Part shown: in pieces, positions 24,449 to 56,750 of the stretch
How positions within the stretch are numbered: the first letter of the stretch is position 1
How the letters are laid out: each line of letters begins with the position of its first letter
Made by a program: the position numbers and the translations under genes
DNA from: Naegleria gruberi
Taxonomy: Eukaryota
Reading direction: 5' to 3' (one strand)
Assembly (NCBI GenBank): GCA_000004985.1
Contig: GG738852.1
Length of the DNA: 64,000 nucleotides
Notes under the pieces: model-generated
The model's input: only the letters and a program-made list of their open reading frames with translations
The model's database searches: none
What the model was told of the DNA's origin: nothing

Positions 24449-24490
24449 AGATTTTGTAAATACCTAATAAAATTATAATTAGATTAAAAA

Positions 24491-25747: not shown

Positions 25748-25751
25748 ATAT

Positions 25752-27017: not shown

Positions 27018-27162
27018 TTTTTTGTAGTTTTGCTTGGCGCCAAAAACTAAAATTAGTGTTTGTCATGAAATAAGAATATTGGTGGCCATCTATCAAACTT
27101 TCAGCAGATCGCACACCTTCAAGGAATGGATATTAAAAAATTGAATTAAAATCAAATTCTGA

Positions 27163-28290
27163 ATGTCTGCATCGGAATTGAAAAATTCTCATCACAGAAG
27201 GGATGAATCTCCTCCTTTCATTCGAATTTCAACCACACCTCCCTCACCTAACACTGCTGCTGCGGCCTATAATAATATTTTGAATCGTTCCAATTCCTCC
27301 AATAATAATAATAATCAAAATTCTAATAATGCAAGTGGTAATATTGGAGGTGAATTTGATGTTAATCATTTACACTCTCCTGAAGATCTACAACCAAAAC
27401 GGATACCTCAGGAGCATCACTTTAGAATAGATTCCAAGACGAGAAATTTACACCATCAATCGAGAGTATTTAGTCCATTAATTCCTCCAGTTTTTAGAGA
27501 GGTTTCATCATGGTCTTCGTTTATTATTCAAGCCATGTTTGGATTAGTTTCAGCATGGTTGATAGTTGATTGGATTTTATTTCCATCCTCTATGAGAGGA
27601 TATGAAAATTCGAAAGAATCTAATTTAGAACACACAACAGAGGAAGAAGAGACAAAATTGCTTCTCAGAAAATCTTTCGAATGGGTCATAATTTTTCATG
27701 TACTGATTGAAAGTTTATTGAATTGTTTAATGCCCACTCTATTAAGGTTTACACTTGCTGAGCATACATTCAGAAATTTGAAGAGCAACATTGTAAACAC
27801 GAATCAATTTTTGAGTTTTCAATACCCAAGGACAATTATACAAATTTTTCTTCGTCCATTTTGGATATTCTACTGTTTGTTGGCGATGCCAGTGGAAAGT
27901 GGAAGCCTATTAAGGATGATTGTATTTCTAATTGCATCTATCGTGGGATTTTATGATGTGCAACAGTTTTCAAGATCGGTCCTCTATCTTCAATACAAAT
28001 CGGACGAGATTTCCAAGTTTATTTATGTGGATGTTGAATATAAGGAGAATTGCAAAGAATCACCACTAAAATCAACATTAATTTTGACAACTTTACTGCC
28101 ATTACTCTTGATTGTACAAGTTTTGAGTTTACTTTCCATTAAGAATATTATAATATTTGGATTTTCTTGTGTTGCATTTATTGGTGTAGATAATTCTAAA
28201 AGTTGGCCAGAGGCTATTAGGTACAATATCAGATATCTTGCATATGGTATTTCTCAAATTGGATTGATTTGGGCTATACACCAACTCTAA
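27163..28290 (+). CDS. Multi-pass membrane protein with an N-rich N-terminus, unknown
   Basis: The 375-aa ORF has at least 5 hydrophobic helices (e.g. AMFGLVSAWLIVDWILF, IVFLIASIVGFY, LILTTLLPLLLIVQVLSLLSI). Confidence 0.45.
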   Translation: MSASELKNSHHRRDESPPFIRISTTPPSPNTAAAAYNNILNRSNSSNNNNNQNSNNASGNIGGEFDVNHLHSPEDLQPKRIPQEHHFRIDSKTRNLHHQSRVFSPLIPPVFREVSSWSSFIIQAMFGLVSAWLIVDWILFPSSMRGYENSKESNLEHTTEEEETKLLLRKSFEWVIIFHVLIESLLNCLMPTLLRFTLAEHTFRNLKSNIVNTNQFLSFQYPRTIIQIFLRPFWIFYCLLAMPVESGSLLRMIVFLIASIVGFYDVQQFSRSVLYLQYKSDEISKFIYVDVEYKENCKESPLKSTLILTTLLPLLLIVQVLSLLSIKNIIIFGFSCVAFIGVDNSKSWPEAIRYNIRYLAYGISQIGLIWAIHQL

Positions 28291-28502
28291 ACCCTACTCA
28301 TACATATGTGATCTTATACACAGCTATAATTGGCCATATGCGTTAAAATATCCTCATTTAACACTGAAATAACAAATTGCTATTACGCTGCAATATTTGC
28401 CTATGTAAATTTTGTTCCTATTAACAGACCACTTTTTTACAGTCGGTATCTTATGTTAATTATCAATATTTGGAGGCTTTTCTTTAATGAGAACTTGCAT
28501 GT

Positions 28503-29570
28503 TTATTTCACTCGAATCATTTGCTTGGATGGTTCATCCAATTCCTTAGACTTGAGACGATTTGGAGTAGAATGCATTTGTATTTTTTGGAAGAGAGGAG
28601 GTAAACTGGCCTGTGACATCATGATGGCAGCACTCGATGCTGCCTGTTTCTTTTTCAATTCCAAAGTCTTTTTCTTTTTCTCTCTCTTTTCTCTTTTAGC
28701 CAATCTCATTTCACTATCTATTGATCGAATGGTGAGAGAGTTTGATGGACTCATATATTCATGAGGGGAAGCTGGAGGTGTCACAAGAATTTGCAATTCA
28801 TCCATGTCTTTTGATTCACTCACAAAACATGTAATGGAGTTTCGTTTAGAAACTTGTCTAGTATCAGAATTGATTGAATCAATTGGGACAGATTGTGACC
28901 TAGATCTAAAATTTTCCACACTCTCAACTCTTCGTATTGGTATAGATGGAGAAGGTACTGGATTGAATGAAGAAAAATCAGTTGTAGATGTACAGTGATG
29001 AGAAGGAGATACTTGATTTCCTTTTGGAGGTGGTGGAGTGGTTTGTGCTGATGAATTTTTCAGTACACTAGTCAGTAAGCTTGGTCTTTGTCGAGGAGGT
29101 GTTGAAAATAATAGTGGAGATGAATTGGAATGTGTTGGTGAGGGTGGGGAATCTTGCCTGTGCAATTTTTGATAGCTGGTGCTTTTTTTAGGAGGTGGTG
29201 AATTGGTGTTAGCCTCTTCCCGGTTGTTGGATGATGTGCTATCCATCACTAAGGATCGAGTCTTTTTGAGAGAACCTCTCCTACTTCCCAAAGATCCATT
29301 ATAATTGCTCGAGTAGAACCACACAGGAAGCTCCCTATCGAACATGTATTCGCTGCTCGTATAGAGAACCTCATCTGCATTATCATCCTCTTCATCGGGC
29401 ACTGTACTATTAGGAGGAGGAAGAGGTGTAAATGATTTCCTTAAAGAATTATTGGATGATTTTGGAGAGGATTGTTGGGAAACCATTGTTGATTGGGAAT
29501 TAGTCGATGACATTTGGTATTTATCTGCTTGGGATGACCCTTTGTTCATTACAGAATTTGAGCCGCCCAT
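28503..29570 (-). CDS. S/P/T-rich low-complexity protein with an N-terminal Met-Gly (possible N-myristoylation) start
   Basis: The 355-aa ORF begins MGGSNSVMNKGSS and has a C-terminal basic coiled patch (RLAKREKREKKKKTLELKKK). Confidence 0.45.
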   Translation of the reverse strand: MGGSNSVMNKGSSQADKYQMSSTNSQSTMVSQQSSPKSSNNSLRKSFTPLPPPNSTVPDEEDDNADEVLYTSSEYMFDRELPVWFYSSNYNGSLGSRRGSLKKTRSLVMDSTSSNNREEANTNSPPPKKSTSYQKLHRQDSPPSPTHSNSSPLLFSTPPRQRPSLLTSVLKNSSAQTTPPPPKGNQVSPSHHCTSTTDFSSFNPVPSPSIPIRRVESVENFRSRSQSVPIDSINSDTRQVSKRNSITCFVSESKDMDELQILVTPPASPHEYMSPSNSLTIRSIDSEMRLAKREKREKKKKTLELKKKQAASSAAIMMSQASLPPLFQKIQMHSTPNRLKSKELDEPSKQMIRVK

Positions 29571-31133
29571 ATTTCTTAAGGATTGTTGAGAAGGTATTAT
29601 TTAGTAGCGTAGTAGCAGTTGTGAAATAATGTTATAACATGTATGTGTAGAGTTATGAATGTGAAACACACAAATAATTAGTATTGATATCAATCTTAAA
29701 CAAAGCTCCGTTTCCTACCAAAATAGATCAGCCATTCAGTGGTTAGGTTAATTGCCTTAGTGACTGTTGCTAATGGTCGCACAGTATGTGATTGTCGTGA
29801 GCTAGTATTAGGTGGGGCAGTGTTATCTTGCCAATCAATGTTGTTGCAATCTTTTTGTTTTTTCTCCTCTTGGATAGCTGTATCTTCCCAAATAAAAATG
29901 TTGGGTTTTACTGTACTGTAATCAAAAGTTTTTCAATCGTCCGCTCAACATCGCTCACCACGCAACAAAGTTTGAGGCATGATATCGATGCCTGTTGTTT
30001 GGGTGCCTTATTAAATACTTTGAACAAACAGAAATCCATTTTAGGTTGTTTAAATATGCCATTTGTTAAGGAGATCAGAGTGTTAAGAATAAGATGAACA
30101 AGTGAAAATACAATTGTCCTCAGAAAATACCGTTGATACTTTGATCATTGTCATCAAAAATCTGAAAACATTGAGGAATATTGAGGAAGACGATATTAAG
30201 GACCTGTATGAATGGAATGATGAAGGTAATCATCTTTACTGTTATCCTATTTGGGCAAGGTTTACCAATTCTTACAATGGTCCTTTGGTAAACTAAGGAT
30301 GCTTATTCCAAAAATTTTGAGTCATGTTCATGACCAAACAGCCAGTTTCAGCGACATTGTTATGTGGTCTCTACTACGTACCTAAAAAGGACATATACTA
30401 TAATGCTGCTTATGCAGTGTGCTGATGGATTTATACAATGTATAAGATGATCTTGGTTATGGACTTGGGTCGACCTTGTTAATGAGTAACCCTGGTAATT
30501 TTACAGACCAGGAGTAAGTTTACTAGTTGGAATGGATTTTTATGCTGCATAGTATCGCTAAACCTTTTCCAATAATCATTGCAACACTTAATAAATATAA
30601 ATTAGTAAAATAAGTGTTATTTAGCATGCGCTGCAGACAGTTCTTTACAAGAATACACTATTTTCTAAACATTGAATCTGTCCTACTGAACGATTTCAAA
30701 TAATTAAAAGTTGAACAGTTATTGAGATTAGCTCACTTTCTCAAAATTTCTTTCGAACAGTATTCTTCTTTATTAGATCCATTTCAATAGTTTATGAATT
30801 ATCCATTCTTTCTCACAAATACACATTCTATTATCCAGTTACCAAAACCTTTCTCAATAGATCGCATTCAAATGTCGTTCCTTTTATCTAAAGTCTTGAC
30901 AATCGTCCTCAAATGTATGAATTGGAACGTTCTAAGAGGAGACGTTATTTTTAAAGGGCCGAACTGATTTTTCTTCGTTTTTCTGTTGCCGTCTTCTAAT
31001 TCATTTTTAAAAAATTCATCATCCTATTCTACCGCGCCTCTTTCTTTGCCACCACAACAAGAAAAACGATTTTTGATTTTGGTATTGACAAGAAATTTTA
31101 ATAATAGGGAAGAGTTTTTGAAGAATATATATA

Positions 31134-32396
31134 ATGCCAGAAGAAGTTAAAAAGTCTAAAAAGCCAAGAGGTTTGTTTTATTTATATTGTTGTGATGATT
31201 CTAAAGAGAATATTTAAATCGTTAATACGCTGCTGAAATTGATGACCACATCATAATATTATTATTAATTTGGATGGAATTTTGATTATTATTTTGCGGA
31301 AAATCTACACCAATGTTTGCCCATCAATTACTTCTTATCAAATTATTGATACAATTAATTACTTACTACAACAACAAATTATCGAAAAACAATAGATTTG
31401 GCTTTTACTCAACAAAAGTTACCAGCTTGGCAACCAATCCTTTCACCTCCTTGGGTGATTATGTGTTTTGTTGTCATTACTATTGTTTTTATTCCAATAG
31501 GTGTGGCAATTCTCGTAACTACACAAAACGTACAAGAATATAGAGAAAGATACGACCAAGATTGTACTCTTGACTATACACCATCAAATCTTCCAGGTAG
31601 AGGACCATATTGTGAAAGTGTAACATCTATCACTGTTACTAAGAGAATGGAACCACCAATTTATATGTATTATAGTTTGGAAAACTTTTATCAAAACCAT
31701 CGTCGTTATACTCAATCACGTTCGGATTCTCAATTAGCTGGTGACAATACGATAACACCAACAAGTGCCAACTCTGATTGTTATCCTATTGTCTTTTATG
31801 GTCCAGATCAAGCTAACTTGACTGGTCTTTCTACAAATGCCAACATGACTTATAGTCCTTGTGGTTTGATTGCTTGGAGTATGTTCAACGATACTATCAG
31901 TTTGTATGGTCCAAATAATTCTTTGGTTTGTGATGGTCTTCGTCACTCTGAAGTTTCAAATTGTACCAAGAAGGGTATTGCTTGGTCTTCTGATGTTGAC
32001 ATTAAATTCAGACCACCAAAGAGTCCAGTTTTTAACAGAATTACTCCAACTGAATATTATGGTGAACCAGGTCACTTGTTACCTTCTGTCACTGATGAAG
32101 ATTTCATTGTTTGGATGAGAACTGCTGCTCTCCCAACATTCCGTAAATTATATCGTATCATTAATGTTCCTCTTGAGGCTGGTACTTATTCATTCAAGAT
32201 TCAACAACGTTTCAATGTTTCTACATTTGAAGGAAAGAAGTATGTTGTCATTACAAACAACAGTTGGATTGGTGGACGTAATATGTTCTTGGCTATTGCT
32301 TATTTGGTTGTTGGTGGATTAAGCTTTATTTTGGCTTGTATCTTTGCCATTGGTGCTATTATTCAAAAGATTAGACACAAACAAACTAGTGCTTAA
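31134..32396 (+). CDS. CDC50: CDC50/LEM3 (TMEM30) family, P4-ATPase flippase beta-subunit; 2 exons 31134..31170, 31396..32396
   Basis: Exon 2 gives …AFTQQKLPAWQPILSPPWVIMCFVVITIVFIPIGVAIL… (the family N-terminal motif plus TM1), a large ectodomain with conserved Cys, and a C-terminal TM. An in-frame N-terminus MPEEVKKSKKPR is supplied by a 37-nt exon joined through a 225-nt intron (GTTTGT donor, phase 1), giving KPRDLAFTQQKLPAWQP. Confidence 0.75.
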
Positions 32397-32511
32397 ATTA
32401 AATAATATTTCTTTATTTTTATTGGTGACATTTTGGTTGACTAAGGAAATTTCCCTCCAAAATATTTACATTGATCGTTTTTAAAATGTGTTAAACTAAA
32501 GTGATTGTTGT

Positions 32512-33525
32512 ATGGAGGAAAAAGTTAAAAACAACAAAAAAATGGTTGAAATTACAGAATTATTACTCAGGAAGAGATCGGAACACAATGAAGGGCAATT
32601 ATCAAACCTAAAGGAAATAACACTCCACCAATTTGAAATTGAATCCATCAATGAAGTATTAGGGATATATTGTAGGGAATTACAAATTCTCTACTTGCAA
32701 AATAACTTAATAAGAGTTATACAAAATTTACATCACCTCAAAGATTTGAGGTATTTGAATTTAGCTGTAAATAATATAACATCAATTAGTGGATTGGGAT
32801 CGAATGAACATTTGGAAAAATTAGATTTGACAGCTAACTTTGTTTGGGACTTGTTGAGTGTTGAATCATTGAGAGAGAATTATAAGTTAAGGGAGATGCA
32901 CTTGTTGGGAAATCCGTGCACTACCTTTGAGAATTATAGACTCTTTGTTATTGGTGCTGTTCCTAGTTTGCAAATTCTTGATGGTGAGCGAGTGGCAAAG
33001 AGTGAGAGAATTCTTGCTGAGCAATTAAAGGAACAAATCAAGAAATCTATTGAGGAGGAACAATCAAGAATCAATGTGGCAGATATTCAGGAAAATATTG
33101 AGCAACGTGACCAAGACAAGAAGGAAATGGCCGAACATAAGAATGCAAAGGAGAAGGCTCAAGAAAAGAACTTGGATGGAATCAATGAAGTGGATGGATT
33201 AGGACTTGGAAAGAGAGTTTCTCTCACTCCAGAAGAAGAGATTGAAAAGTATGGCAAAGTCATGCAAAAGAATGAAGGAAAATGGGCATTTAAATTATTG
33301 CAGGAGAAGGATCATTATGTGTTGGATATTCCAGCTGGAAAATACATGTCACTGAGCTATGTTGACATTGATGTTCAACCAACCTTTGTTCGTGTTACCA
33401 TCAAGGGTAAAGTTTTACAATTGAGATTTGATAGGGAGGTCAACTCTTCCAACGCATCAGCCCAACGATCCACCACAACAGGTAATATTGTAATCAAAAT
33501 TCCCTACTCAACTCTCAATCCTTAA
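32512..33525 (+). CDS. DNAAF11: tilB/LRRC6 (Seahorse; dynein axonemal assembly factor 11): LRR + LRRcap + C-terminal CS (p23-like) domain
   Basis: …LLRKRSEHNEGQLSNLKEITLHQFEIESINEVLGIYCRELQILYLQNNLI…LDLTANFV…MHLLGNPC… matches the LRRC6 N-terminus almost block for block. The C-terminal YMSLSYVDIDVQPTFVRVTIKGKVLQLRF…QRSTTTGNIVIKIP matches the CS domain of tilB. Confidence 0.85.
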   Translation: MEEKVKNNKKMVEITELLLRKRSEHNEGQLSNLKEITLHQFEIESINEVLGIYCRELQILYLQNNLIRVIQNLHHLKDLRYLNLAVNNITSISGLGSNEHLEKLDLTANFVWDLLSVESLRENYKLREMHLLGNPCTTFENYRLFVIGAVPSLQILDGERVAKSERILAEQLKEQIKKSIEEEQSRINVADIQENIEQRDQDKKEMAEHKNAKEKAQEKNLDGINEVDGLGLGKRVSLTPEEEIEKYGKVMQKNEGKWAFKLLQEKDHYVLDIPAGKYMSLSYVDIDVQPTFVRVTIKGKVLQLRFDREVNSSNASAQRSTTTGNIVIKIPYSTLNP

Positions 33526-33675
33526 TTATTTCAAACTTTCTCTATTGAAAAGTATTACTATTAGAAAAACACGTATCTTTCACCACTGAAAATGAAATAA
33601 TAAATACTTTAAAGCACCATTATTATTGAATCTCTATACTTGATTGTTTATTACAAATAAACATTTCATAAAAAA

Positions 33676-34951
33676 ATGCGTAAACGATTGGGTTCGGTAA
33701 CAAGTAGAATTTTAGATCTAGGTAAGGAGAGAAGAGAGTTGTTTTATAATTTATTGAATATATAAGAAACAACACTTTTGTGTGGTCAAACATTTACTTT
33801 TAAACATTTCAAACCGAGCAATTCATTTGTCGGAGTTTTTGGAAATAATGTTATCGAGTTGACAAGTAATCATCAGGAGAATGATAATTTTATTTATTAT
33901 AGAAAATTAAATCCCATCAATATTAAAGCTAGCAGCAGTAGCAGTACTGATGAATCGAATGGTTCTTCATCAGCAAGTGATTCATTTGATGAAAAGGAAG
34001 TGGAACAATTAATTTCCGATTATTTTCAAATTGATAATTATGATATTGAAGAGTTGCATGAACATTTTGCCAAAGTTGACCCAGACTTGTTTGGGAAAAT
34101 TGTAAAATATTATTGTGGATGGAGATTATTGAAAATGGAACCACTGGAGACTTTGTTTTCCTTTATTTGTAGTTCGAATAATAATGTTTCAAGAATTACC
34201 AAAATGGTTCAGGTATTGTGTGAAGAGTATGGAGAGTGTTTGGGAGAATTTACTATTGATGATGGTGTGACAACATTTCCAATGTACAAGTTTCCAACAT
34301 TGGAACAATTAGAGGAATGCACTGAAAAGGAGTTAAAGTATGTTTTAAATTTCAGGTTAGTGAAATAATATTAATGAAATATTCAGAAAGCATAATTTTG
34401 GATATAGAGCCAAGTACATTGTTCAAACTGTTGAGAAATTAAAGGAGAAACCAGAAAAATACCTCTACACTCTCAGAGATAAAGAAAAGTATCCAACCAG
34501 CTTGGACGTATTGAATGAGTTGAAACAATTTTCTGGGGTTGGTATGAAGGTTGCTTCCTGCGTTGCATTATATAGCATGGATTGTCATGATTGCGTTCCA
34601 ACAGATGTCCACATTCTTAGAATTGCCAGAAATTGCTATCCATCAATGAAAACTATCATTTCGAAAAAGAAGAAATCACTCACTGAAAAGGAAATTCAAA
34701 AAGTTATGAAAGAGTTTGTAAATATATTTGGAGAATATGCTGGATTGGCGCAACTTATTCTATATGGAAGCCAATTATCTCAATTCAAAACTCGTATTCC
34801 GGCTGATGTTAGAGAAACACTCATTACCAAAGAGGAAGAAAGTGATGATGAGGATAAGGATTCTAATGAGGAATCATCAGCAGAAGAGGAGGAAGAAAAG
34901 CCAATCGTACAAGAAAAAAAGAAGAGGCGAGTTGTTAGAAGAAATAAATAA
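33676..34951 (+). CDS. OGG1: 8-oxoguanine DNA glycosylase/AP lyase OGG1; 3 exons 33676..33721, 33767..34355, 34387..34951
   Basis: …LLCGQTFTFKH… (GQSFRW block), ETLFSFICSSNNNVSRITKMVQVLCEEYGE, FGYRAKYIVQTVEKL, and the HhH-GPD motif LKQFSGVGMKVASCVALYSMDCHDCVPTDVHILRIA with the catalytic K and D all match OGG1. Introns are GTAAGG…ATAAG (45 nt, phase 1) and GTTAGT…TTCAG (31 nt, phase 2). Confidence 0.85.
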
Positions 34952-34953
34952 TT

Positions 34954-35880
34954 TTAAAGGTAAATAAAGTTAGGACTTGGCTCATTGGTCTTTAACCAAT
35001 TGAAATCATGAACTCTATTCCACTTATTCTTGTTATCATCCTCCACAACCATATCACAAGATTTGAGTTGAGTATCCAATCCTTCATATTCGAGGGAATA
35101 TCTTCCAAATTGTAAGCCAGAACAATTTTCAATAATTGGATTATTCTTTGGACAAATAAGGAATTCACATCCAGTACTGTCATGTATTCTCAATTGCCAA
35201 CAAGCAAGCTGGAATTTACAATTTTGACATTTGGAAAGGAAGATGGCACCATTCACAGGTCCTAATTCAATAGTACAATCCACAAGATTTGATATATACA
35301 CAGCGCCAATAATATGCCTTATTCTGACATGATTTTGATTTCCATTACAAATGGCAAAGCTTTCATTTTCCTTAGTTGGGGCAACTTCATGGATATAACC
35401 TGAAGGTACCCTACTCAGATCAACAACTGTCTTGTTAGTCTCCAACTTGATAGATGGAGTTTCCTCAACTACTACGTTTTGAGTTTCCTTCTTTTGAAGT
35501 GATTCAGAACTTGGTGCCTTCTTTTTGAATGAAAATACCTTTTTATCCTTCTTTAATTCTTCCTGGATTTTTTTAATCTTTTCATCTGCCTTTCGGACGT
35601 CATAGTTTGGCAGATAGTGCACATGTTGGTTTAAAAATTGTTGCAATTCAGAGGCTTGTTTTTGTTGACTAATTAATTCATTAAAAGCATTCCAAAAGAC
35701 TGTTGGATTTTCCTTAACCTCTTGATTTCTCTTATTTTTCATTTCTTCATTTCTCTTTTCCATCCTCTCAAGGAATTGCTTCCTCTTGGCTTCTTGTATA
35801 TAATTTAAACTTGGTGTAGTGTTATCTTGATTCAGTGATGTATCATCGGAATTTGTTGTATCAACAGTTGATGGAATCAT
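34954..35880 (-). CDS. TBCC: Tubulin-folding cofactor C (TBCC)
   Basis: An N-terminal coiled coil is followed by a C-terminal CARP/TBCC beta-helix: VYISNLVDCTIELGPVNGAIFLSKCQNCKFQLACWQLRIHDSTGCEFLICP…NKWNRVHDFNWL. The ATG is at 35880; upstream in frame there is only a TTG. Confidence 0.8.
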   Translation of the reverse strand: MIPSTVDTTNSDDTSLNQDNTTPSLNYIQEAKRKQFLERMEKRNEEMKNKRNQEVKENPTVFWNAFNELISQQKQASELQQFLNQHVHYLPNYDVRKADEKIKKIQEELKKDKKVFSFKKKAPSSESLQKKETQNVVVEETPSIKLETNKTVVDLSRVPSGYIHEVAPTKENESFAICNGNQNHVRIRHIIGAVYISNLVDCTIELGPVNGAIFLSKCQNCKFQLACWQLRIHDSTGCEFLICPKNNPIIENCSGLQFGRYSLEYEGLDTQLKSCDMVVEDDNKNKWNRVHDFNWLKTNEPSPNFIYL

Positions 35881-36048
35881 TTTTTTTGTTTTTTGTATTT
35901 TCTTGAAGTGCAAATATTTGGCGGGAAAACAAATTGAAATATTTATTTAATGATCAAATAATTTAATTTCGAAATATTCCAATAATAGAGAATAGCTCAT
36001 CATTGTTATAATTAATAAATAAAATAATTAAATAATTGTATTAAATAA

Positions 36049-36666
36049 TTAAGCAATGGTGGCATAATTCTTCCAAAATTCAACAGAATCCATATATTTG
36101 GTTCTTTCTAATGGTACTCCACTACCTCCTTCTTCTTTTCCTAAAGCATTTCTCATCATTGTGATTGGAGTCATTGGAAGTTCATAATCAACGTCTTGTG
36201 ACTTAACAGAAATGATTCCCCATTCACAATCAGTAATTTCAGGTCTCTTTTCATAATCGGAAACTTCTTGCATTGCTTCAGATTCCTTCAATATTTGTTC
36301 TTTAGAGTAGAGAATAATATCCAAATATTTAGAGTCCTTGATTTGATCCTTTACTAAATCGTAAGGGAAATATCTACAGAGGACTGGTAATTCCGATTCT
36401 TTTCTTTGTTGATATTCTGTTCGGAGCAAATGTTCATTATCTTTGGTAATTTCCAAGAAACTTTGTTTACATCCTGCAAAATTAGGAACAAATAAATGTT
36501 TACAAAATGGTGCATAACCATCCTTCAATTGATAATCTCCAGAGCTCCAAATTTTGTTGATTTGTTCTTCAAAAGATTGGACAGAAATTGGAATTTGGGT
36601 GCCTCCTTTGTATCCTTGTTGGAATTGACGAACGGCGAAAGAGTCAATGTAAGTAAGTAATTTCAT
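36049..36666 (-). CDS. Conserved hypothetical protein (205 aa), unknown function
   Basis: A clean ORF with ATG and a non-repetitive composition (…DGYAPFCKHLFVPNFAGCKQSF…). I could not assign a family. Confidence 0.45.
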   Translation of the reverse strand: MKLLTYIDSFAVRQFQQGYKGGTQIPISVQSFEEQINKIWSSGDYQLKDGYAPFCKHLFVPNFAGCKQSFLEITKDNEHLLRTEYQQRKESELPVLCRYFPYDLVKDQIKDSKYLDIILYSKEQILKESEAMQEVSDYEKRPEITDCEWGIISVKSQDVDYELPMTPITMMRNALGKEEGGSGVPLERTKYMDSVEFWKNYATIA

Positions 36667-36732
36667 TTTTTATTTACATTTTTCAAAATCAAATTAAAAG
36701 CAACCAATTCAGCTTAGGAAACTAAAACGAAT

Positions 36733-39700
36733 TTACATTTTTCTTCTTTCAACCACTGCAAAACTTGGGAATGATCTCTTCTTTAAACGTTCCAATTCTT
36801 CTGTGAGAATGTCGAGTTCTCGTTTTTGATCACGTGACAAATCTTGAAGTTTTCTTTCCCATCTAATTTCGGTCATACGCTTATCAGCAGCTTCTTTTTC
36901 TTTGGTGGCTGATTGAATTTGGTTGAGTTGAGCTCTTTCTTCAACAACTTGTTCGAAAATCTTGATTTGTCGAATGAGGTTAGTATTTTCTTCATATCTA
37001 ACATGCATTAAATCTTCCATCTTTTTAAGGATTCTCTTCTTTTCTTCGAGGGCAGTTTCAAGAGCAGCCTTAACATTTTCAATTTGTTTTTGGAGTTTAG
37101 CTCTTTCCATCTTTTTCTTCTCCTCTGTTCCTCCTCCACTCTTGATAATTTCTTGCATTTCCTTCTTTACTTTAAGCATTTGAAGCCTCTTGAATTTAAT
37201 TATCATTTCTTCAGTATCAAAAGCAATGAGGTCATTTTCCCATTGAATCTTTCTAATCTTCTTCTTTAAATCTTTCATCTTTGTCAATTGTTTAACAATT
37301 TCTTGACCCTGTTGTCTAATATTAGAGTTATGATCTTCAACAGTTGATCTAAATATAAGAATGGCATCAGAATAGTCAGTAACTACAGCTGCTTGTTCAA
37401 CTTCCACTTGACCTTGCTTGAATCTGAAAATCTTATCCATATTGTAAGACTCGGTTACAATCTTATCTCTGAACTTTGTCAGTTCAGTCATTTCCAAACT
37501 CATTATTGCATCCAAATCCTTATCTTCTTTGGTCAACTTGTCGAGACGGACTCTCATTTCGTCAAGTCTTTGTTGAGAATCTCTTACACTATTGTCCATT
37601 ACTACCTTTGCCTCTCTTATTTCCCAAAATCTTGCCCATAATTCATCATCAGCAATGTAGATTGGTCTTGATTTTTCTTCATCGAGAGGATCTTCTGGAG
37701 GAGCATTCTTTGCTTCTTCTGTTGCGTCTACATCAGCAAATGGATCTACAGAATTCAAAGCTAGGTCAATATTATCTTGATTTGTTTGAGGTTTAGATCT
37801 TGTTCTGAAAATCTTGTAAAGTTTTTCGAACATTTCACCAATTTTCATATTTGCTGCATGTTGCAACTTTTGGAATTCCATATTCATACTTGATTGAGTT
37901 TTTTGTTGCATCATCTTTTTACACATTTGTGAGAGAGCCTGTTGATTCGCTGGATAGAATACTTGAAGAATATCTCTTTGGAATTGAGTTTTGAACGATC
38001 TTTCCATTTGACGATCTTCTAGTATTATCTTTTCATGTTCAACCTTTTCAAGTTCAAACCTTTTGTGGTATTCCTGGACAGCACTAGAAGATTGAGCCTT
38101 CTTATTCTTCAATTCTTCTAAAATCTTTTCTAATTGCTTTTCTGCCTTTTCAAATTCTTCGTGTTGGATGATTGATTGAGAAAGTTTTACCATTTGGAGT
38201 TCAATTTCAAAAAGTGATTGGTCTGTTGATTGCTTTTTCAAGAATAGAATCTTCAAGTTTGTATCGAATTCTTGACAAAGATCAGCTATTTGTTGTTTGG
38301 CATTGTTGAGCTTGGCCTCCAATTGTTTAACCTTCTTAATACGCTCTTCTTCCTTTTGTTTCATTAAAGCTTCATATTCCTTGAGTTCTTTCATTTCTTG
38401 CTCTGTTAACTCAGATCTTTCCTTTCCCATTGCAGCTGGGACAGGTATTTCTTCTTCTTTAGTTTCGTGAGTGTCAAGATCTAATTTACCATCCATCATC
38501 ATTTGCAAGGCTCTTTGTGCTGTGTCCTTATCTTGCATTTTTGATGGATCTGATGCCTTTTGATTATCTTGCTTTTTAGACTTGTCGTCTGATCTCACAA
38601 ATTTAGTCTTTGGAAGCTCATCTTCGCTTACTTGGAGAATGTATTGTTCTGGCTTCTCTTGAGGTTTGAGTTTTACATCGAATATTTCAACAGGGATTGG
38701 TGTACCTGAACATCTGTTCAAATCTTTAGAAATGTCTAGAATTTTCTCGTTCATACTTTCAATCTTTCTGATAATTTGAGTCTTTTCTTCTCTCACCGTC
38801 TTAAATTCTCCATTAAATTGTCTTTTCATCTTGTCCACTTTTTCTTGAAGAAGGAAAATTTGGGTAACTTTTCTTTGTCTTGTGTATAGATCGGTATATG
38901 GATATAAAAGACCATCAAGATCGAGAATAAGGTTCTTTCTGATATTTTCCTTTGTTTTTCTTAATTCAGATTCATCCTCACTTCTGTTCTCTGAAATTTC
39001 ACTTGTTCTCGAGTTGGTTCTCTTGTTCGATTTTTCTTCATATTCTTCCTCATCTGGAACACCACCTTCGATATCGTTGGTAATGTATTCCTTTCTTCTG
39101 TTTACCAATGATATTTCTTCCATTCTTCTCATGAATGCAATCTTTTCAAGAATAACTTCTCTCTTTGGATCTCTCTTTCTAATCACATAATTTGGAACTT
39201 CCAGAAGAATTCCTTCCTTTTGGTATTCGGAAGCCATCTTGAAAGCAATAATAGTGGTTGCATGTTCTTCCATAGAGTCCCAACATTCCTTTTTGATTTT
39301 CTTTGCCAAGATGTCCTTCTTTACATTTTCTACACGCATAACTTCCTTTAGTTTCTCACATTCCTTTTCACCTTCTCTCTCCAGCATCTTTTTGTAATCT
39401 TCATCAATTATAAATTCGCTTTCAGATAATCTTTCATCCTCTGGAGCATTATCATTTTCAGCCTTAATTTCAAAAAATAGTTTTCTCAACTCGTCTATTT
39501 GAGAGAAAGCTTGCTCCTTCTTGGTTTCTTTCATCATTTGTTCAACCTTATTTTGATTGTCAGTCTTAATTTCCAAAATTGTTTTAAAATCTGGAGACTC
39601 TGATGTTGTCGAACACTTATCTTTTGGTTGAACTTTTGGAATGGCCATAACAAAACTGTTAGTGTTCATGTTTTCGGAAGGATCTAAGGAATAAACACAT

Positions 39701-42073
39701 ATACTTCCGTCATAGCCTGACGAGAAAATCGTAGTGGAATCGTATGAAAATGAAATACTTGAAACACCACCATTCATAGAATTGTGTAAATAGTATGATT
39801 CTGAGGCTCCTTCTTCTTCGTTCTGCTCAAAGAAGTTAGTATGTGCTATTCTGATTGAAACTACACCATCCTTTGCTCCAGTACATAGGTATCTTCCACA
39901 AGAACTCAAAACTACCCAAGCACCAGTTTTATAGTGGCACAAAGTTTCACTACTTGGAGTTACTACATTGTTACTCATTCCAGATTGTCTATCTTCAACG
40001 TTGAGATCGTAAATTTTGATTGTTTTGTCTTGTGACAAGGTGTAAATATGATTTGGATCGCTGCAATGATTGTCAATTACTCAAATGATACTAAAAACTT
40101 ACTCTTTGAAAGGAGCCATTCCGTAACATGGGTAATCCAGTTTCCACATATCTTTAGTAATATTTGTTAGTAAGATAACTTCTTCATATGTTACAGGAGG
40201 CTCTACAAGATACAAATCACCAACCTCAGTGGCCACATACAGAGATGTTTCATTAGACCAAGCGAGGGTTGAAATGTTGTGGTTAAATTTACAGAATCCA
40301 ATCAAGGACAAAAATTCATCATCATCTTCCATTGCCAAGTCAACGACAATATCCTCATTATTATTCTCAATCTCTGCATTACCCAAACGGAGGAATCCAA
40401 GAGTGGAATCGGCAAATGAGACGGCAACAAGTGTTCCATTTTTGCCTCCAATTTTAATGCTCGTAATAGCAGATGTCCTTAATCTGTGTGAATAAATTGC
40501 AATAGGTTGGTGTTTTTCATCAAATTCAAAGACTCTCAAAAAACCAATGGAAGAACCAACAAATAGCAGACCATTAGAGTATTGACCACATGAGAATAGT
40601 GCATTGAACTTTCTCTTGGCAATCAATGTATTGGTTTTGTAATTCCACACTCTAATAGTTCCATCCATACCATGACTCACAACAATGGATTTGTTTGTCT
40701 CTCCAGAGTCTTGTGGTTCCAATTGGTAAACACCTGTAACAGCTCCAATATGAGAATCGTAAACCTAAATAAATTGTCAAGAATAAATTCCATAATATAC
40801 TTACGTAACTCATGGATATTTCGTTCTTCATCAATTCCATATCAGTGATTGTATCTGTTTCGAATCCCTTAATATACACTCTAAAAATGGATCCATCCAC
40901 AGTGCCAGCTATTATATATTTGAAATTTCCTGAAATACAAACAGAAGAAATATCACCCAGTTTGTTGTTCAATGTTACAACTCTGGATGATATTCTTTCC
41001 TCATCATCAAATTTTTGTCCAGCATTATTAATTGTTGACATACGATAAACTTTCAAACATCCTTGATGTAATCCAGCAATACATGAGTGTCTACAAACTG
41101 CTATATTATACATTGCATCTCTAGAATCGTCTAAATCCAAAATAATACCATTTGAGTGAATATTTTCAAATCTTAAAAAGTCTCCATCATTCGTCACACA
41201 TAAAATGTCATTATTGACTCCCCATTCATGCCTATATAATTCTGTTGTTTTGATTTTTTCGTAAATGTTTTCTGAAACCTTCGGTTCTCTGGAAAATAAA
41301 GGTTAAAACAATTGAAATATTTTAGAAGAAACATACACTGGTATGATATCATATCCATCAACTATTGGATTTACCAGCCAGAATGCAAGATGAGCAAATC
41401 CACTCGAACATATTTGTAACTTGTTTCTTGGATTGAAACTGGCATACTTTGTAGTATTTGGTACTTGGGTTTGAATCAGACTTGAAAGTATATGTTAGCT
41501 CAGAATAATTTGAAGAAACCTACATCCTACTAGAGGCCCAATCCCAAACTGTGAGTTGATGGTCAGGAACTCCACTTAATGACAAAAGAAAACTACCATC
41601 CCTAGAGAAATCCAAATCCAAATAGTCAATTACTGATCCACCAGATAAAACTTTTAAAACCTCAAAAGTATTCAAATCATAAACTCTAATTTTTGGATGG
41701 GAATACGTATCTGCAACTGCAAAGACTCTTCTTTTCTTGTTGAAGGCAATTGCACTAATTCCTGCTGTGAGGTATAACTGTTTTGTAGTTGCCACAGATT
41801 GTCTCAAATCAAATGAGTCTTGTACAGATTTATCCTCACTAATATAGATATCGGGAACAAAGTAGTGTTCCTCCTTTGTTTCAATATTAATAAATCTCAC
41901 TCCCCTTCCACAAATAAATGCAATCCTTTGATCGTCCACTGAGTGAATCTTCCTTCCATCGTAACCGTAGGAAGATCTTGTTGTATTAAAGTACGCTCCA
42001 AGTTAGACTGATGATAGATAATAAATTATTGCACTTACATCATCTCACTGCTGATAAAGTCTTGGTTAGGCAT
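36733..42073 (-). CDS. CFAP43/CFAP44-like ciliary protein (N-terminal WD40 propellers + ~1000-aa coiled-coil tail); 6 exons 42073..42039, 41976..41524, 41480..41337, 41288..40805, 40764..40103, 40060..36733
   Basis: Four consecutive minus-strand ORFs with WD-repeat character (…GHxxxVxxIxF…D…IxVWD…) and the 1101-aa coiled-coil ORF join through canonical short introns: GTAAGT/GTAGGT/GTATGT donors, 40-62 nt, all phases closing, about 1700 aa in total. The WD-propeller + long coiled-coil architecture and size match CFAP43/44 (an inference; not alignable by eye). The acceptor of intron 1 is ambiguous (41977 or 41953). Confidence 0.5.
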
Positions 42074-42135
42074 TTTTTTTGTAGTTTGAAATGAATTTTG
42101 GCGCCAAAAGACGGTTCAAAGTAAGTTTGTTAAAC

Positions 42136-44643
42136 TTACATAAACTCGTTTATTAGGCCAGAGAATTCTGATGGTTGAGAGCTATTTGTAATAAATTCAT
42201 AATTGGTCCAATCATCCTCATCAGCATATAAATTCTTTACAGAATTGAGCTTTTTCATAAGATAGAAATCTTCATGAATATCAGATTCATTTGGGACAAT
42301 GTTAAGTTTGTGACTATAAACATTCTTAGGTATTGGACTTATCAATGGTGTGCTTAGGATATTTAGGTCGGGTGTTTGTTTCTTAGTGATCGTCGTAGAC
42401 TTTGGTGTGGTGGTTTTACTCTTTGGTGTTGAGGTGGTAGTTTTTGTTGGACTCATCTCGCTTGGTTTTTTCATTCTTTCCTCAATAATTTGAACAATGT
42501 CTCCATTAGTTGCAGATTTAGAAATGGATTTGAGGTTATATCTCCTTCTGCGGAAAATACTAGGTCTTGATTTTGTCACTCTATTCTTCCAATTTTTTCT
42601 TTCAGAGTAATCATAAAATTCTCTGGTTTTTTTACAACCTAGCAATACTGTGTTATTCTCCCTAATGTCATGCACAAATCCACGAGCCTTCCTTAAAGCA
42701 TCCCTTATTGCCTTTTCCAATGCTGCTTTTGATATTTCGTTGCTTTCTGGTTGCATTTCTGATTTGTTTGATGATTCTACATTATTGGATTCATCGTCCT
42801 CATCTGTCTCTTCTGATAATGACTTGGAATCACTCACCACTGTTACCTCTTTACCCTCTGGACTTTGCACTTTGCTCATATTAATATCAGCAATTATCGA
42901 GTCTTGTCTTTTTTTCTCCTCTTCCAAGTTGCTTTGGTGAGATACATTATGATGAATTTGAGAATGGTTTGGCATTAATACTTCATTTGTAACATTGACA
43001 GGCTCAGGATATTGTGGTGGGAATTTTTGTAGTAATACCTCATTTGTGACATTAACAGGCATTGGATCACTAGGATAGCATTGTGGAGGCACACAATATT
43101 GAGGTGGGAAATTAGTGCCACTAATATCATTTTGGATATCTGAATCGAAACGATTACGCATAAAGCTGCCATTGTTATTAGTGTTTGAGGTTGTAGTGAT
43201 AGCGGGAGGAGGAATCATCACTGGTACAGTAACGAGAGGTGTACCCCAAGCTTGCTCAATTGAACTAGTGTTAATCTGTGCAGACATGTTTTGATTTACA
43301 TGGTGACCTACAAGATTATATGTTGGGGGAGTATTATGGATTTGACTTGGTGGATTAAGTGAGGGTGAGAGTTGACTGCATGGATCCAAAACTGGTTGTT
43401 GGTGTTGTTGGTCAGAAATATGTATAGTTTGTGATTTAGGAGTAGACATGTTGAACGAAGAGGACAAAACTACAGGAGGATTGGATGGAGTTCTTTGAGG
43501 GGAAAATTGGGAGATATTTGTTTGTTGAGCTGGTGGGGGTTGAAGTAATGGAGGTGTAGCAATATTTGATGAGTGGAAGGAAGTTGAAATTCGAGAGCTG
43601 TTCATCGATGTGTTCACAAAGTTTGAAGGAGGTGGCATTAAGCGATCATCTGAGGAAATATTTCCTCTGAGTGATGTAGGTTGTATCAACTGAGATTGGT
43701 GGGTTTGAGGAATTGGTTGATTGGTTGTCTTAATTGGATCAACATATTGCTCTGTTTGGCAATATTGAGATCCAGTAAAGGTAGATTGTGGAGCTTGAAG
43801 AATTGATGTTTGAGTACTCTGACAAAACATTTGTTGAGATGAGCTTGTACTAGATGGTTTGATTTCTTCTACTTTCATGTGTTTGAGTAATTTTGCAGTT
43901 TGGGTAGGGAATTTCATATTGTTATTGTTTGATTGAGCAACAGAGGAAAATCGTTGTCTAAATGCCTTATTGATAGCATCAGCAACATCTTTCTCATTCT
44001 CAGCAGGTTTGTTCACAGGCTTTGAGAATTGTGACCGTATCCTTGAAAGTTGTGACAGTGATCTCTGAGTATTAACATCGTCTTCATTATTATTTCTAGT
44101 AATCCTATTTACAACAGTTGAGGAAGATGTAAAGCCATACTGTTGTGAAGGATTGTAACTGTGTGAAGAGAGAAAATTAGGTGTCCTAACTCCACCAACT
44201 GCAGTATAAGTAGTAATCGAACTAGAGAAGGGTTGGTGGGGTGTTTGATGTTGAAAATTGGTTTCAACATTAGGATAGTATGATTGTGATGATGGTGTCT
44301 GATAGTTAGAAACCTGCTGAGGACGAGCAGCAAGAGTTTGATATCTTACTGTTGAACTGCTGCTTTGGTATGGTGTTTGATAATTGTTTGTAGGAGGGAG
44401 TTGCTTTTGTGGTATGGTTTGCTGTTGGTGAATTTGTTGTGATGGTGATGTGATTTGCTGACGAGGATGAAATTGTTGTTGCTGTGGATAGTTATTGTAA
44501 TAATATTGTTGTTGTTGATGATTCTGATATGGTTGATAGTTTGAATTTTGTACTACATTCCTTGTGTGCAATGGTTGTGTTTGCATGCTACCTTGTTGTG
44601 TCGGGATGAAGTATTTGTGTTGTGGCGGTTGGAAAGACATCAT
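42136..44643 (-). CDS. Q/N/P/S/T-rich low-complexity protein (835 aa) with a short basic C-terminal globular region
   Basis: A long ORF from an ATG. Codon usage matches neighbouring genes. The C-terminus reads …AIRDALRKARGFVHDIRENNTVLLGCKKTREFYDY…. Confidence 0.45.
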   Translation of the reverse strand: MMSFQPPQHKYFIPTQQGSMQTQPLHTRNVVQNSNYQPYQNHQQQQYYYNNYPQQQQFHPRQQITSPSQQIHQQQTIPQKQLPPTNNYQTPYQSSSSTVRYQTLAARPQQVSNYQTPSSQSYYPNVETNFQHQTPHQPFSSSITTYTAVGGVRTPNFLSSHSYNPSQQYGFTSSSTVVNRITRNNNEDDVNTQRSLSQLSRIRSQFSKPVNKPAENEKDVADAINKAFRQRFSSVAQSNNNNMKFPTQTAKLLKHMKVEEIKPSSTSSSQQMFCQSTQTSILQAPQSTFTGSQYCQTEQYVDPIKTTNQPIPQTHQSQLIQPTSLRGNISSDDRLMPPPSNFVNTSMNSSRISTSFHSSNIATPPLLQPPPAQQTNISQFSPQRTPSNPPVVLSSSFNMSTPKSQTIHISDQQHQQPVLDPCSQLSPSLNPPSQIHNTPPTYNLVGHHVNQNMSAQINTSSIEQAWGTPLVTVPVMIPPPAITTTSNTNNNGSFMRNRFDSDIQNDISGTNFPPQYCVPPQCYPSDPMPVNVTNEVLLQKFPPQYPEPVNVTNEVLMPNHSQIHHNVSHQSNLEEEKKRQDSIIADINMSKVQSPEGKEVTVVSDSKSLSEETDEDDESNNVESSNKSEMQPESNEISKAALEKAIRDALRKARGFVHDIRENNTVLLGCKKTREFYDYSERKNWKNRVTKSRPSIFRRRRYNLKSISKSATNGDIVQIIEERMKKPSEMSPTKTTTSTPKSKTTTPKSTTITKKQTPDLNILSTPLISPIPKNVYSHKLNIVPNESDIHEDFYLMKKLNSVKNLYADEDDWTNYEFITNSSQPSEFSGLINEFM

Positions 44644-56446: not shown

Positions 56447-56750
56447 ACCATTTGAAATATTGTAATACAATAAACAGTGTGAGATTTCAAACAACTTGAA
56501 CCATTCGAATGAACTCTGATGTATTTTTACAAAACTTGTTCATCCACTGATATGAACCACATTTCAATCAACCTGGAAGAATTTAAAATCAAACTCTTCC
56601 AAACAATCAAAAAAAATACAACACTCCCAACCACATGAATTCATTCTCAAATCTAACATAATCATCTCAACATCAACACAACATTGAAAATCACCCTCAT
56701 TATCATCAACACCCAAGTTATAACTTTTCAAGAAAAAATTGAAGAAAAAA

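What the first reader, a model, noticed from the sequence alone, without database searches (positions are those of the whole stretch)
36733..42073. Six-exon, roughly 1700-aa WD40 + coiled-coil gene reconstructed on the minus strand; candidate CFAP43/CFAP44 orthologue
Four separate WD-repeat ORFs (41520..41939, 40652..41197, 40099..40722, plus a 48-codon exon at 41337..41480 absent from the ORF track) and the 1101-aa coiled-coil ORF link through five in-phase canonical introns. Two WD propellers followed by a ~1000-aa coiled coil of this total size is the CFAP43/44 architecture, and those proteins tether axonemal dyneins. The gene would be fragmented or missed without splicing.
Basis: partly seen in the sequence, partly recalled or inferred. 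Interest (0 to 1): 0.65.

Follow-up and report, generated by a model that had tools for sequence, protein, structure and literature searches.

The report
Unannotated Naegleria gruberi CFAP43 flagellar gene
This is the Naegleria gruberi copy of CFAP43, a conserved flagellar protein that helps tether an inner dynein motor to the axoneme; the six-exon gene is real and ordinary in kind, but it seems to be missing from this organism's public gene set.

Summary
On the minus strand, six exons (42073-42039, 41976-41524, 41480-41337, 41288-40805, 40764-40103, 40060-36733) joined by five GT..AG introns of 40-62 nt give one open 5106-nt CDS of 1701 aa. The product aligns end to end, with no gap at any splice junction, with the 1710-aa Naegleria lovaniensis protein that UniProt names CFAP43 (67% identity). 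All five intron positions and phases are shared with N. fowleri and N. lovaniensis. That homology settles the intron-1 ambiguity: the acceptor AG ends at 41977.

It is CFAP43, not CFAP44. Pfam CC_Cfap43 scores E=1.5e-92. Solved Chlamydomonas FAP43 and mammalian CFAP43 score 1e-75 to 1e-58, whereas CFAP44 scores only 1e-15 to 1e-18, through the propellers alone.

The window is N. gruberi NEG-M. The genes flanking 36667-44860 carry consecutive GenBank, RefSeq, UniProt and EukProt accessions, and three homology searches returned no N. gruberi protein. The gene therefore appears to be unannotated publicly.

The biology is ordinary: a motile flagellate is expected to have the tether/tether-head subunit. 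The practical value is an annotation fix.

A side observation: an E2F-like palindrome (TTTGGCGCCAAA) lies in the CFAP43 promoter. It is conserved in N. fowleri and shared with neighbouring flagellar or microtubule genes.

The parts
36733..42073 (-). Complete CFAP43 coding region (ATG at 42073, stop codon 36735-36733), 1701 aa after splicing
42039..42073 (-). Exon 1 (35 nt; MPNQDFISSEM + 2 nt, phase 2)
   Evidence: The same short first exon, ending ...GAGATGAT|GTAAGT, is present in N. fowleri and N. lovaniensis.
41977..42038 (-). Intron 1 (62 nt, GTAAGT..CAAG, CTAAC branch-like motif)
   Evidence: The acceptor at 41977 is chosen over 41953 because ISSYGYDGR aligns with ICSNGYGGK of the orthologues.
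41524..41976 (-). Exon 2 (453 nt), start of the first beta-propeller
41481..41523 (-). Intron 2 (43 nt, GTAGGT..AG, phase 2)
   Evidence: Same position and phase in N. fowleri and N. lovaniensis.
41337..41480 (-). Exon 3 (144 nt, 48 codons), not visible as an ORF
   Evidence: Aligns with human CFAP43 residues ~150-183 (SFNPxNxxQLC motif) and with N. lovaniensis.
41289..41336 (-). Intron 3 (48 nt, GTATGT..AG, phase 2)
40805..41288 (-). Exon 4 (484 nt), rest of the first propeller
40765..40804 (-). Intron 4 (40 nt, GTAAGT..AG, phase 0)
40103..40764 (-). Exon 5 (662 nt), most of the second beta-propeller
40061..40102 (-). Intron 5 (42 nt, GTAAGT..AG, phase 2), joining the WD ORFs to the 1101-aa ORF
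   Evidence: Propeller Pfam hits (residues 519-736, 531-728) span this junction at residue 593.
36733..40060 (-). Exon 6 (3328 nt). It encodes the last blades of propeller 2 (to about residue 735, about 39634), then the CFAP43 helical/coiled-coil region (residues ~755-1701, about 39576-36736), then the stop.
   Evidence: (CC_Cfap43 755-1290 plus a second stretch)
42097..42108 (.). Palindromic E2F-consensus-like element TTTGGCGCCAAA, 24-35 nt upstream of the ATG, in the 62-nt intergenic spacer. A candidate proximal promoter element; its function is inferred, not shown.
   Evidence: 5 matches in the window against 0.02 expected. Conserved upstream of N. fowleri CFAP43 and half-conserved in N. 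lovaniensis.
42076..42086 (-). AACTACAAAAA element directly before the ATG, conserved with the orthologous promoters and with the CLAMP-domain gene promoter. Possibly an initiator or 5'UTR element.

Best explanation
[quoted passage not shown] Shown here: a six-exon, 1701-aa gene. It encodes an N-terminal pair of WD40 beta-propellers (about residues 16-735) and a roughly 950-aa helical/coiled-coil region that matches the CFAP43-specific Pfam family and the solved CFAP43 chains along its whole length. Inferred from what is established for the family: the protein is made when the amoeba differentiates into a flagellate. Its C-terminal helices pair with CFAP44, form the stellate hub, and run as a coiled coil along the A-tubule to the inner junction. 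The propeller end belongs to the tether head, which holds the motor domain of inner dynein arm f/I1 and so restrains and regulates that dynein and helps dock inner arms d and g.
For: The gene model is supported (in-frame GT..AG splicing, one stop). One search shows 67% identity over 1712 columns to the 1710-aa N. lovaniensis CFAP43, with no gap at any junction. Searches show all five intron positions and phases conserved in two sister species. Family assignment: Pfam CC_Cfap43 scores 1.5e-92, with EML-type tandem propeller hits at 85-345 and 396-736. Against the PDB, FAP43 chain 8glv_Dp scores 1.2e-75 and CFAP43 chains 8j07_i6, 9d2f_Y and 9fqr_H8 score 2e-68 to 1e-58, whereas CFAP44 scores at best 5e-18 and only over residues ~75-200. 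An exhaustive HMMER search with exon 6 found 219 cluster representatives at E<1e-30, typically 1500-1800 aa and matched over their C-terminal ~1100 aa. All six top hits tested carry CC_Cfap43, and four of them also pass CFAP43_N (one of these WD40_CFAP43 too). The N-terminal 760 aa aligns over residues ~10-720 with the N-termini of those proteins (E 1e-30 to 1e-107). A profile of the model plus 11 relatives matches human CFAP43 residues 18-1662 of 1665 in one stretch (E=1.8e-282). The mechanism comes from the literature. [quoted passage not shown] Cryo-EM shows that each protein has an N-terminal pair of propellers, a helical stellate region and a microtubule-bound coiled coil ending at the inner junction (PMC10266980). 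The genomic context fits a flagellar gene: DNAAF11-like, C1a-32/CLAMP and tubulin cofactor C genes lie within 16 kb.
Against: There is no transcript or protein evidence for this locus, so the exon boundaries, the start codon and expression during differentiation rest on homology and conserved intron positions. The Pfam CFAP43_N model is below threshold (14.1 bits against a cutoff of 27.1), so the N-terminal assignment relies on pairwise and profile alignments. I could not predict the structure, because the tool refuses spliced sequences. I did not check whether N. gruberi encodes the obligate partner CFAP44 or the I1/f dynein. No experiment on the T/TH complex exists for any heterolobosean.
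Confidence: 0.93

Rival explanations
1. It is the CFAP44 (FAP44) orthologue, the other T/TH subunit, which has the same overall architecture.
For: CFAP44 chains are significant hits (5e-18 to 6e-15; 1e-115 to 1e-83 with the family profile), and the two families are structurally similar (PMC10266980).
Against: The CFAP44 matches cover only the propeller region (query 73-201; profile positions 7-558). CFAP43 matches cover the whole length and score 50 or more orders of magnitude better. The CFAP43-specific coiled-coil Pfam family scores 311.6 bits. UniProt names the 67%-identical N. lovaniensis protein CFAP43.
Confidence: 0.02
2. The WD ORFs and the 1101-aa ORF are two adjacent genes, a WD protein and a coiled-coil protein, rather than one.
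For: N. fowleri is annotated as two adjacent models, 1212 aa and 485 aa. No transcript data are available here.
Against: The N. fowleri split lies elsewhere, at about residue 1210, and coincides with a 1-nt frame change after an A6 run, typical of an assembly or annotation artefact. In this window the 42-nt intron 5 is canonical, in phase, and conserved in position in two other species. The second propeller's Pfam hits span that junction. N. lovaniensis has one 1710-aa model, and the arrangement is colinear with solved CFAP43. The 1101-aa ORF has no ATG before codon 21 and would begin in the middle of a propeller.
Confidence: 0.02
3. It belongs to another axonemal WD-plus-coiled-coil family (CFAP57/WDR65, CFAP251, EML-like) or is a lineage-specific paralogue with a different role.
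For: Generic propeller Pfam families (EML, WDR3, THOC3 and others) hit the N-terminus. FAP57 and CFAP57 chains appear among weaker PDB hits.
Against: All those hits are below their curated cutoffs and limited to the propellers. CFAP57, CFAP251 and CFAP52 score 1e-42 or worse against 1e-282 for CFAP43 with the profile. Only one Naegleria cluster was found by homology.
Confidence: 0.02
4. It is a decaying or unexpressed gene copy, which would explain its absence from the annotation.
For: No public gene model seems to exist for it.
Against: The 1701-codon frame is intact, all splice sites are canonical, identity to orthologues is 62-67% with invariant family residues kept, and the promoter elements are conserved. 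The neighbouring 835-aa ORF is unannotated as well, which points to an annotation gap rather than gene decay.
Confidence: 0.02

Closest known systems
Naegleria lovaniensis C9374_014626 (XP_044553218.1, UniRef name 'Cilia- and flagella-associated protein 43', 1710 aa) and N. fowleri FDP41_009221 + FDP41_009220
   Same: 67% (N. lovaniensis) and about 62% (N. fowleri) identity, end-to-end colinearity, and identical positions and phases for all five introns.
   Different: Different chromosomal neighbours: G-alpha upstream and a 132-134-aa gene downstream in the sister species, against a Q-rich ORF and a DUF3228 gene here. The N. fowleri gene is split into two models by a 1-nt frame change. The N. 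gruberi gene has no public model.
Chlamydomonas FAP43 (PDB 8glv chain Dp) and mammalian CFAP43 (8j07_i6, 9d2f_Y, 9fqr_H8)
   Same: [quoted passage not shown] Matches run along the whole chain. In those organisms the protein is the T/TH subunit that pairs with CFAP44 (PMC5921572, PMC10266980).
   Different: Only about 25-30% identity. The Pfam CFAP43_N model is not reached. Chlamydomonas FAP43 is 250 aa longer. No functional data exist for Naegleria.
CFAP44 / FAP44
   Same: A structurally similar paralogous partner with the same propeller-propeller-coiled-coil plan. The propeller regions are detectably homologous.
   Different: No match to the coiled-coil part. CFAP44 is the subunit whose propellers contact the f-alpha motor (PMC10266980).
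FAP244 (green-algal duplicate of FAP43)
   Same: Falls in the FAP43 clade and has the same domain plan (PMC5921572).
   Different: Reported as restricted to green algae. No second Naegleria copy was found in the searches run here.

Membership tests
CFAP43 / FAP43 | CFAP43-specific C-terminal helical/coiled-coil region (Pfam PF25828 CC_Cfap43) | tested here: met
   E=1.5e-92, 311.6 bits against a curated cutoff of 27, two stretches from residue 755 onward.
CFAP43 / FAP43 | N-terminal pair of WD40 beta-propellers | tested here: met
   Tested at sequence level only. Beta-prop_EML hits 85-345, Beta-prop_EML_2 and other propeller hits fall at 396-736, and WD40 hits 689-717. Residues 10-720 align with the N-termini of family members.
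CFAP43 / FAP43 | Pfam PF23185 CFAP43_N above its gathering score | tested here: not met
   14.1 bits against a cutoff of 27.1 (E=0.026). Close family members that align with this N-terminus do pass, so this reflects divergence and is not evidence of a different fold.
CFAP43 / FAP43 | End-to-end colinearity with experimentally solved CFAP43 chains, and a better match to CFAP43 than to CFAP44 | tested here: met
   With phmmer, FAP43 scores 1.2e-75 and CFAP43 2e-68, against 5e-18 or worse for CFAP44. The profile matches 8j07_i6 residues 18-1662 of 1665 at E=1.8e-282, against 2.5e-115 for CFAP44 in the propellers only.
CFAP43 / FAP43 | Placement in the CFAP43 clade of a CFAP43/CFAP44 phylogeny | not tested
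   No tree was built. The assignment rests on score differences and on the domain-specific Pfam family.
Tether/tether-head complex of inner dynein arm f/I1 | Partner CFAP44 and I1/f dynein encoded in the same genome | not tested
Tether/tether-head complex of inner dynein arm f/I1 | Axonemal localisation, heterodimerisation with CFAP44 and a motility phenotype on loss | not testable with these tools
   Needs tagging, proteomics or knock-down in Naegleria flagellates. Known for Tetrahymena and Chlamydomonas (PMC5921572, PMC5921573, PMC6208767).
CFAP44 / FAP44 | Homology over the C-terminal coiled coil to CFAP44 | tested here: not met
   CFAP44 matches stop within the propeller region.

The most novel reading that the evidence does not exclude
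Beyond the annotation gap, the CFAP43 promoter carries a perfect palindromic E2F-type site (TTTGGCGCCAAA) followed by AACTACAAAAA. The pair is conserved upstream of N. fowleri CFAP43 and half-conserved in N. lovaniensis. The same TTTSSCGCCAA element sits 17-82 nt upstream of the start codons of three other minus-strand genes in this window: a C1a-32/CLAMP gene, tubulin cofactor C, and the unannotated Q-rich ORF. The most novel reading not excluded is that an E2F/DP-type factor drives part of the flagellar and microtubule gene programme during Naegleria's amoeba-to-flagellate switch. A 2025 review states that this organism lacks RFX, FOXJ1 and XAP5 and that its cilia-gene transcription factors are unknown. 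Such a role would echo the E2F4/5-MCIDAS control of multiciliogenesis in vertebrates.
Probability: 0.15. Interest if true: 0.6.

Novelty: new member of a known kind. Interest (0 to 1): 0.2.

Why it matters
CFAP43 is a well-studied axonemal protein. Its loss causes sperm flagellar malformation and hydrocephalus in humans (listed), and finding it in a flagellate is expected. The practical value is curation. N. gruberi NEG-M is a standard reference species in phylogenetic profiling of ciliary genes and in reconstructions of the ancestral eukaryotic cilium. A missing model makes CFAP43, and hence the T/TH complex, look absent from it. It also removes the gene from studies of Naegleria differentiation that quantify expression against the published gene models. 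[quoted passage not shown] Others have already had to repair 68 N. gruberi models by hand. The model given here can be added directly. The shared promoter element gives a cheap, testable lead on how Naegleria switches on flagellar genes.

Tried and rejected
- The alternative intron-1 acceptor at 41953 (a 1694-aa product) was rejected because it deletes residues conserved in both sister species.
- CFAP44, CFAP57, CFAP251 and EML assignments were rejected on score and coverage.
- The two-gene reading was rejected.
It was run on the contiguous exon-6 translation instead.
- Structure prediction and fold search were not run. The predictor carries the same restriction to sequences found exactly in the window, and the N. 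fowleri protein exceeds its 1200-aa limit.
- The look-up of encoding contigs has no record of N. gruberi genes, so the public annotation could not be read directly. It was reconstructed from exact-sequence look-ups and accession order.
- Exact look-ups of several possible partial models of exon 6 and of the Q-rich ORF found nothing.
- Literature searches for Naegleria with CFAP43 or FAP43 gave only incidental mentions.
- Supplements or full texts of the Naegleria differentiation expression papers are not held.
- AACTACAAAAA with one mismatch is not enriched on its own (10 matches against 6.2 expected). Only its exact copies next to the E2F-like site are notable.
- There is no synteny between N. 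gruberi and the other two species around this gene.
Full report
**1. What is in the sequence**

The window is AT-rich (34% GC) and densely packed with long ORFs on both strands. It has no N in it.

Exact-sequence look-ups identify it as Naegleria gruberi strain NEG-M:
- ORF 11015-14830 is EFC48004 / XP_002680748 (ELP1).
- ORF 25752-27017 is EFC48179.
- ORF 28503-29570 is EFC48180.
- ORF 34954-35880 is EFC48181 (tubulin binding cofactor C).
- ORF 36049-36666 is EFC48182.
- ORF 44861-46195 is EFC48183.

All lie on one 938,756-bp contig.

**2. The observation**

I read the minus strand and spliced it in a script.

| Exon | Coordinates | Following intron |
|---|---|---|
| 1 | 42073-42039 | 62 nt |
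| 2 | 41976-41524 | 43 nt |
| 3 | 41480-41337 | 48 nt |
| 4 | 41288-40805 | 40 nt |
| 5 | 40764-40103 | 42 nt |
| 6 | 40060-36733 | none |

- The exons give a 5106-nt CDS with a single terminal stop, so 1701 aa.
- Every intron starts with GTAAGT, GTAGGT or GTATGT and ends in AG.
- A stop-free run of 1101 codons at this composition has a probability of about 1e-36.

The decisive support is comparative:
- The spliced product aligns with the 1710-aa N. lovaniensis protein C9374_014626 at 67% identity (1146/1712, 25 gap positions in all). There is no gap at any of the five junctions, which fall at residues 12, 163, 211, 372/373 and 593.
- In the genomic DNA of N. fowleri (L001) and N. lovaniensis (L002), introns lie at exactly the same five codon positions and in the same phases.
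The acceptor AG ending at 41977 gives ...ISSEMISSYGYDGRKIH, matching ...ISSEMICSNGYGGKRIH in both sister species. The 41953 alternative deletes these conserved residues.
- The ATG at 42073 is also the conserved start: M, five residues, then ISSEM in all three species.

**3. What it is**

Several lines assign the protein to CFAP43:
- Pfam gives CC_Cfap43 (PF25828) at E=1.5e-92, 311.6 bits against a cutoff of 27. It also gives sub-threshold tandem-propeller families over residues 85-345 and 396-736, and a WD40 repeat at 689-717.
- Against all PDB chains, the best hits are Chlamydomonas FAP43 (8glv_Dp, 1.2e-75) and human, mouse and bovine CFAP43 (2e-68 to 1e-58). The matched stretches run from the N-terminus (residues 16-48 and 86-199) through the coiled coil to the C-terminus.
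- CFAP44 chains reach only 5e-18 to 6e-15, and only over residues ~73-201.
- An exhaustive HMMER search of 1.84 billion cluster representatives with the exon-6 translation found 219 proteins at E<1e-30. Most are 1500-1800 aa and match over their C-terminal ~1100 residues.
- All six top hits I scanned carry CC_Cfap43, and four of them also pass CFAP43_N (one of these WD40_CFAP43 too).
- The N-terminal 760 aa of the model aligns across residues ~10-720 with the N-termini of those proteins (E 1e-30 to 1e-107).
- A profile built from the model plus 11 relatives (A1) matches human CFAP43 in one stretch, profile positions 5-1579 to residues 18-1662 of 1665, at E=1.8e-282. CFAP44 gets 2.5e-115 in the propellers only, and CFAP57, CFAP52 and CFAP251 get 1e-42 or weaker.

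The gene is therefore the CFAP43 orthologue, not CFAP44.

One membership feature fails. Pfam CFAP43_N scores 14.1 bits against a cutoff of 27.1. I read this as divergence, given the alignments above.

Its first ~140 residues complete the second propeller.

**4. How it most likely works**

This section is inferred from the family.
- In Tetrahymena and Chlamydomonas, FAP43 and FAP44 form the heterodimeric tether/tether-head complex. They dimerise and anchor to the doublet through their C-terminal coiled coils. The complex is needed for positional stability of the I1/f dynein motor domains and for normal motility (PMC5921572; abstract of PMC5921573).
- Cryo-EM of the Chlamydomonas axoneme shows that each protein has an N-terminal pair of propellers, a helical 'stellate' hub and a microtubule-bound coiled coil ending at the inner junction. 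The coiled coil also takes part in docking inner arms g and d (PMC10266980).
- Naegleria builds 9+2 flagella de novo on differentiation, with coordinated transcription of cilia genes (PMC12183034). The most likely role here is therefore the same structural and regulatory tether, expressed during the amoeba-to-flagellate switch.
- Shown here: gene structure, family, architecture and colinearity. Inferred: expression, the partner protein, localisation and the effect on dynein f.

**5. Annotation status**

- The 1701-aa product is not in the 15-billion-sequence collection.
- Three homology searches, with the full length, the N-terminal 756 aa and the C-terminal 368 aa, returned no N. gruberi protein or near-identical fragment. 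N. gruberi proteins of neighbouring genes are present in the same collection (against 36, 43).
- The flanking genes carry consecutive identifiers in four resources. DUF3228 (36049-36666) is EFC48182, XP_002680926, D2V4Y1 and EukProt P012997. NAEGRDRAFT_57153 (44861-46195) is EFC48183, XP_002680927, D2V4Y2 and P012998.
- UniProt numbers here follow contig position across both strands: ELP1 is D2V4X0 although its EFC number is 175 lower. So no model on either strand appears to exist in 36667-44860.

That interval holds both CFAP43 and an 835-aa Q-rich ORF (42136-44643). This is an inference from accession order plus negative searches. JGI's non-catalogue models or later annotations could still contain the gene. 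Others have reported having to fix 68 N. gruberi models by hand.

In N. fowleri the gene is split into FDP41_009221 (1212 aa) and FDP41_009220 (485 aa) at a 1-nt frame change after an A6 run.

**6. Rivals**

- CFAP44 is rejected on coverage and score.
- Two separate genes is rejected. Intron 5 is canonical, in phase and positionally conserved. The propeller hits span it. The orthologue is a single model. The coiled-coil ORF has no plausible start of its own.
- Another WD-plus-coiled-coil family is rejected on score.
- A pseudogene is unlikely, given the intact frame and conserved residues, splice sites and promoter.

**7. Novelty and score**

The family, its structure and its function are known, and the orthologue in a sister species is already named CFAP43. 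This is a new, apparently unannotated member of a known kind. A specialist would not be surprised by its existence. The value is a corrected gene model for a reference protist, so interest is 0.2.

**8. Things seen in passing**

*Flagellar and microtubule neighbours.* Several such genes lie close by:
- a CLAMP/C1a-32 domain gene (25752-27017);
- a DNAAF11/LRRC6-like gene (32512-33525);
- tubulin cofactor C (34954-35880);
- a DUF3228 gene (36049-36666).

*An E2F-like promoter element.* Comparing their 5' regions revealed TTTSSCGCCAA.
- It gives five matches at four sites in the window, against 0.02 expected.
- Each site lies 17-82 nt upstream of a minus-strand start codon: CFAP43 (42097-42108, a perfect palindrome TTTGGCGCCAAA), the CLAMP gene (27034-27044), TBCC (35918-35928) and the Q-rich ORF (44715-44725).
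- In the CFAP43 and CLAMP promoters it is followed by AACTACAAAAA.
- Upstream of N. fowleri CFAP43 the same pair is present: TTTTGGCGCCAAAATAAACTACAAAAAAA.
- In N. lovaniensis only CCCCGCCAAAAAAACTACAAAAAAA remains.
- A second site is conserved before a Kelch-repeat gene in both sister species.

The 2025 review states that Naegleria lacks RFX, FOXJ1 and XAP5 and that its cilia-gene regulators are unknown. A quick literature search found nothing linking E2F sites to Naegleria flagellar genes. This is a lead only. Four sites in one window cannot establish a regulon, and E2F-type sites could equally mark cell-cycle genes.

Noticed in passing
window 42097-42108, 27034-27044, 35918-35928, 44715-44725 (and 32450-32460 with one mismatch); L001 9932-9943 and 18666-18677; L002 ~5940-5965 and 14462-14473: An E2F-consensus-like element, TTTSSCGCCAA (palindromic TTTGGCGCCAAA at CFAP43), lies 17-82 nt upstream of the start codons of CFAP43, a CLAMP/C1a-32 gene, tubulin cofactor C and an unannotated Q-rich ORF. 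It gives 5 matches against 0.02 expected. It is conserved upstream of N. fowleri CFAP43, half-conserved in N. lovaniensis, and also conserved before a Kelch-repeat gene in both sister species. It may be a promoter element of a co-regulated (flagellar?) gene set in an organism whose cilia-gene transcription factors are unknown.
   Followed up: partly
window 36667-44860: No public N. gruberi gene model seems to exist in this 8.2-kb interval. The flanking genes have consecutive GenBank, RefSeq, UniProt and EukProt accessions (EFC48182/D2V4Y1 and EFC48183/D2V4Y2). Both CFAP43 and the 835-aa ORF are affected.
   Followed up: partly
window 42136-44643 (-): An 835-aa Q/N/S/P-rich ORF with no Pfam hit ends 62 nt upstream of the CFAP43 ATG. 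The exact sequence and three shorter ATG variants are not in the protein collection. It has its own E2F-like site 72-82 nt upstream. Function unknown.
   Followed up: partly
window 22535-36666: Flagellum- and microtubule-related genes are locally concentrated next to CFAP43: a kinesin motor (22535-24448), a CLAMP/C1a-32 domain gene (25752-27017), DNAAF11/LRRC6-like (32512-33525), tubulin cofactor C (34954-35880) and DUF3228 (36049-36666). Whether this exceeds chance for the genome was not tested.
   Followed up: no
L001 (N. fowleri VFQX01000068.1) ~13931-13976: N. fowleri CFAP43 is annotated as two genes (FDP41_009221, 1212 aa; FDP41_009220, 485 aa, 'DUF4201'). A 1-nt frame change right after an A6 run (TTCTTGAAAAAAGCAAGCAAGTGA) creates a premature stop. 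This is probably a homopolymer assembly error rather than a real split.
   Followed up: partly
window 42074-42135 and 36667-36732: The intergenic spacers are extremely short. There are 62 nt between the stop of the upstream ORF and the CFAP43 ATG, and 66 nt between the CFAP43 stop and the ATG of the DUF3228 gene. Promoter, UTRs and terminator signals must be packed into these spacers or overlap neighbouring coding sequence.
   Followed up: no
window 56739-59444 (+) and 5689-7623 (-): Other multi-ORF candidates probably also need splicing: a 901-aa WD40-rich ORF, and two adjacent LRR ORFs (LRR_9/LRR_4) that may be exons of one gene. Not examined.
   Followed up: no
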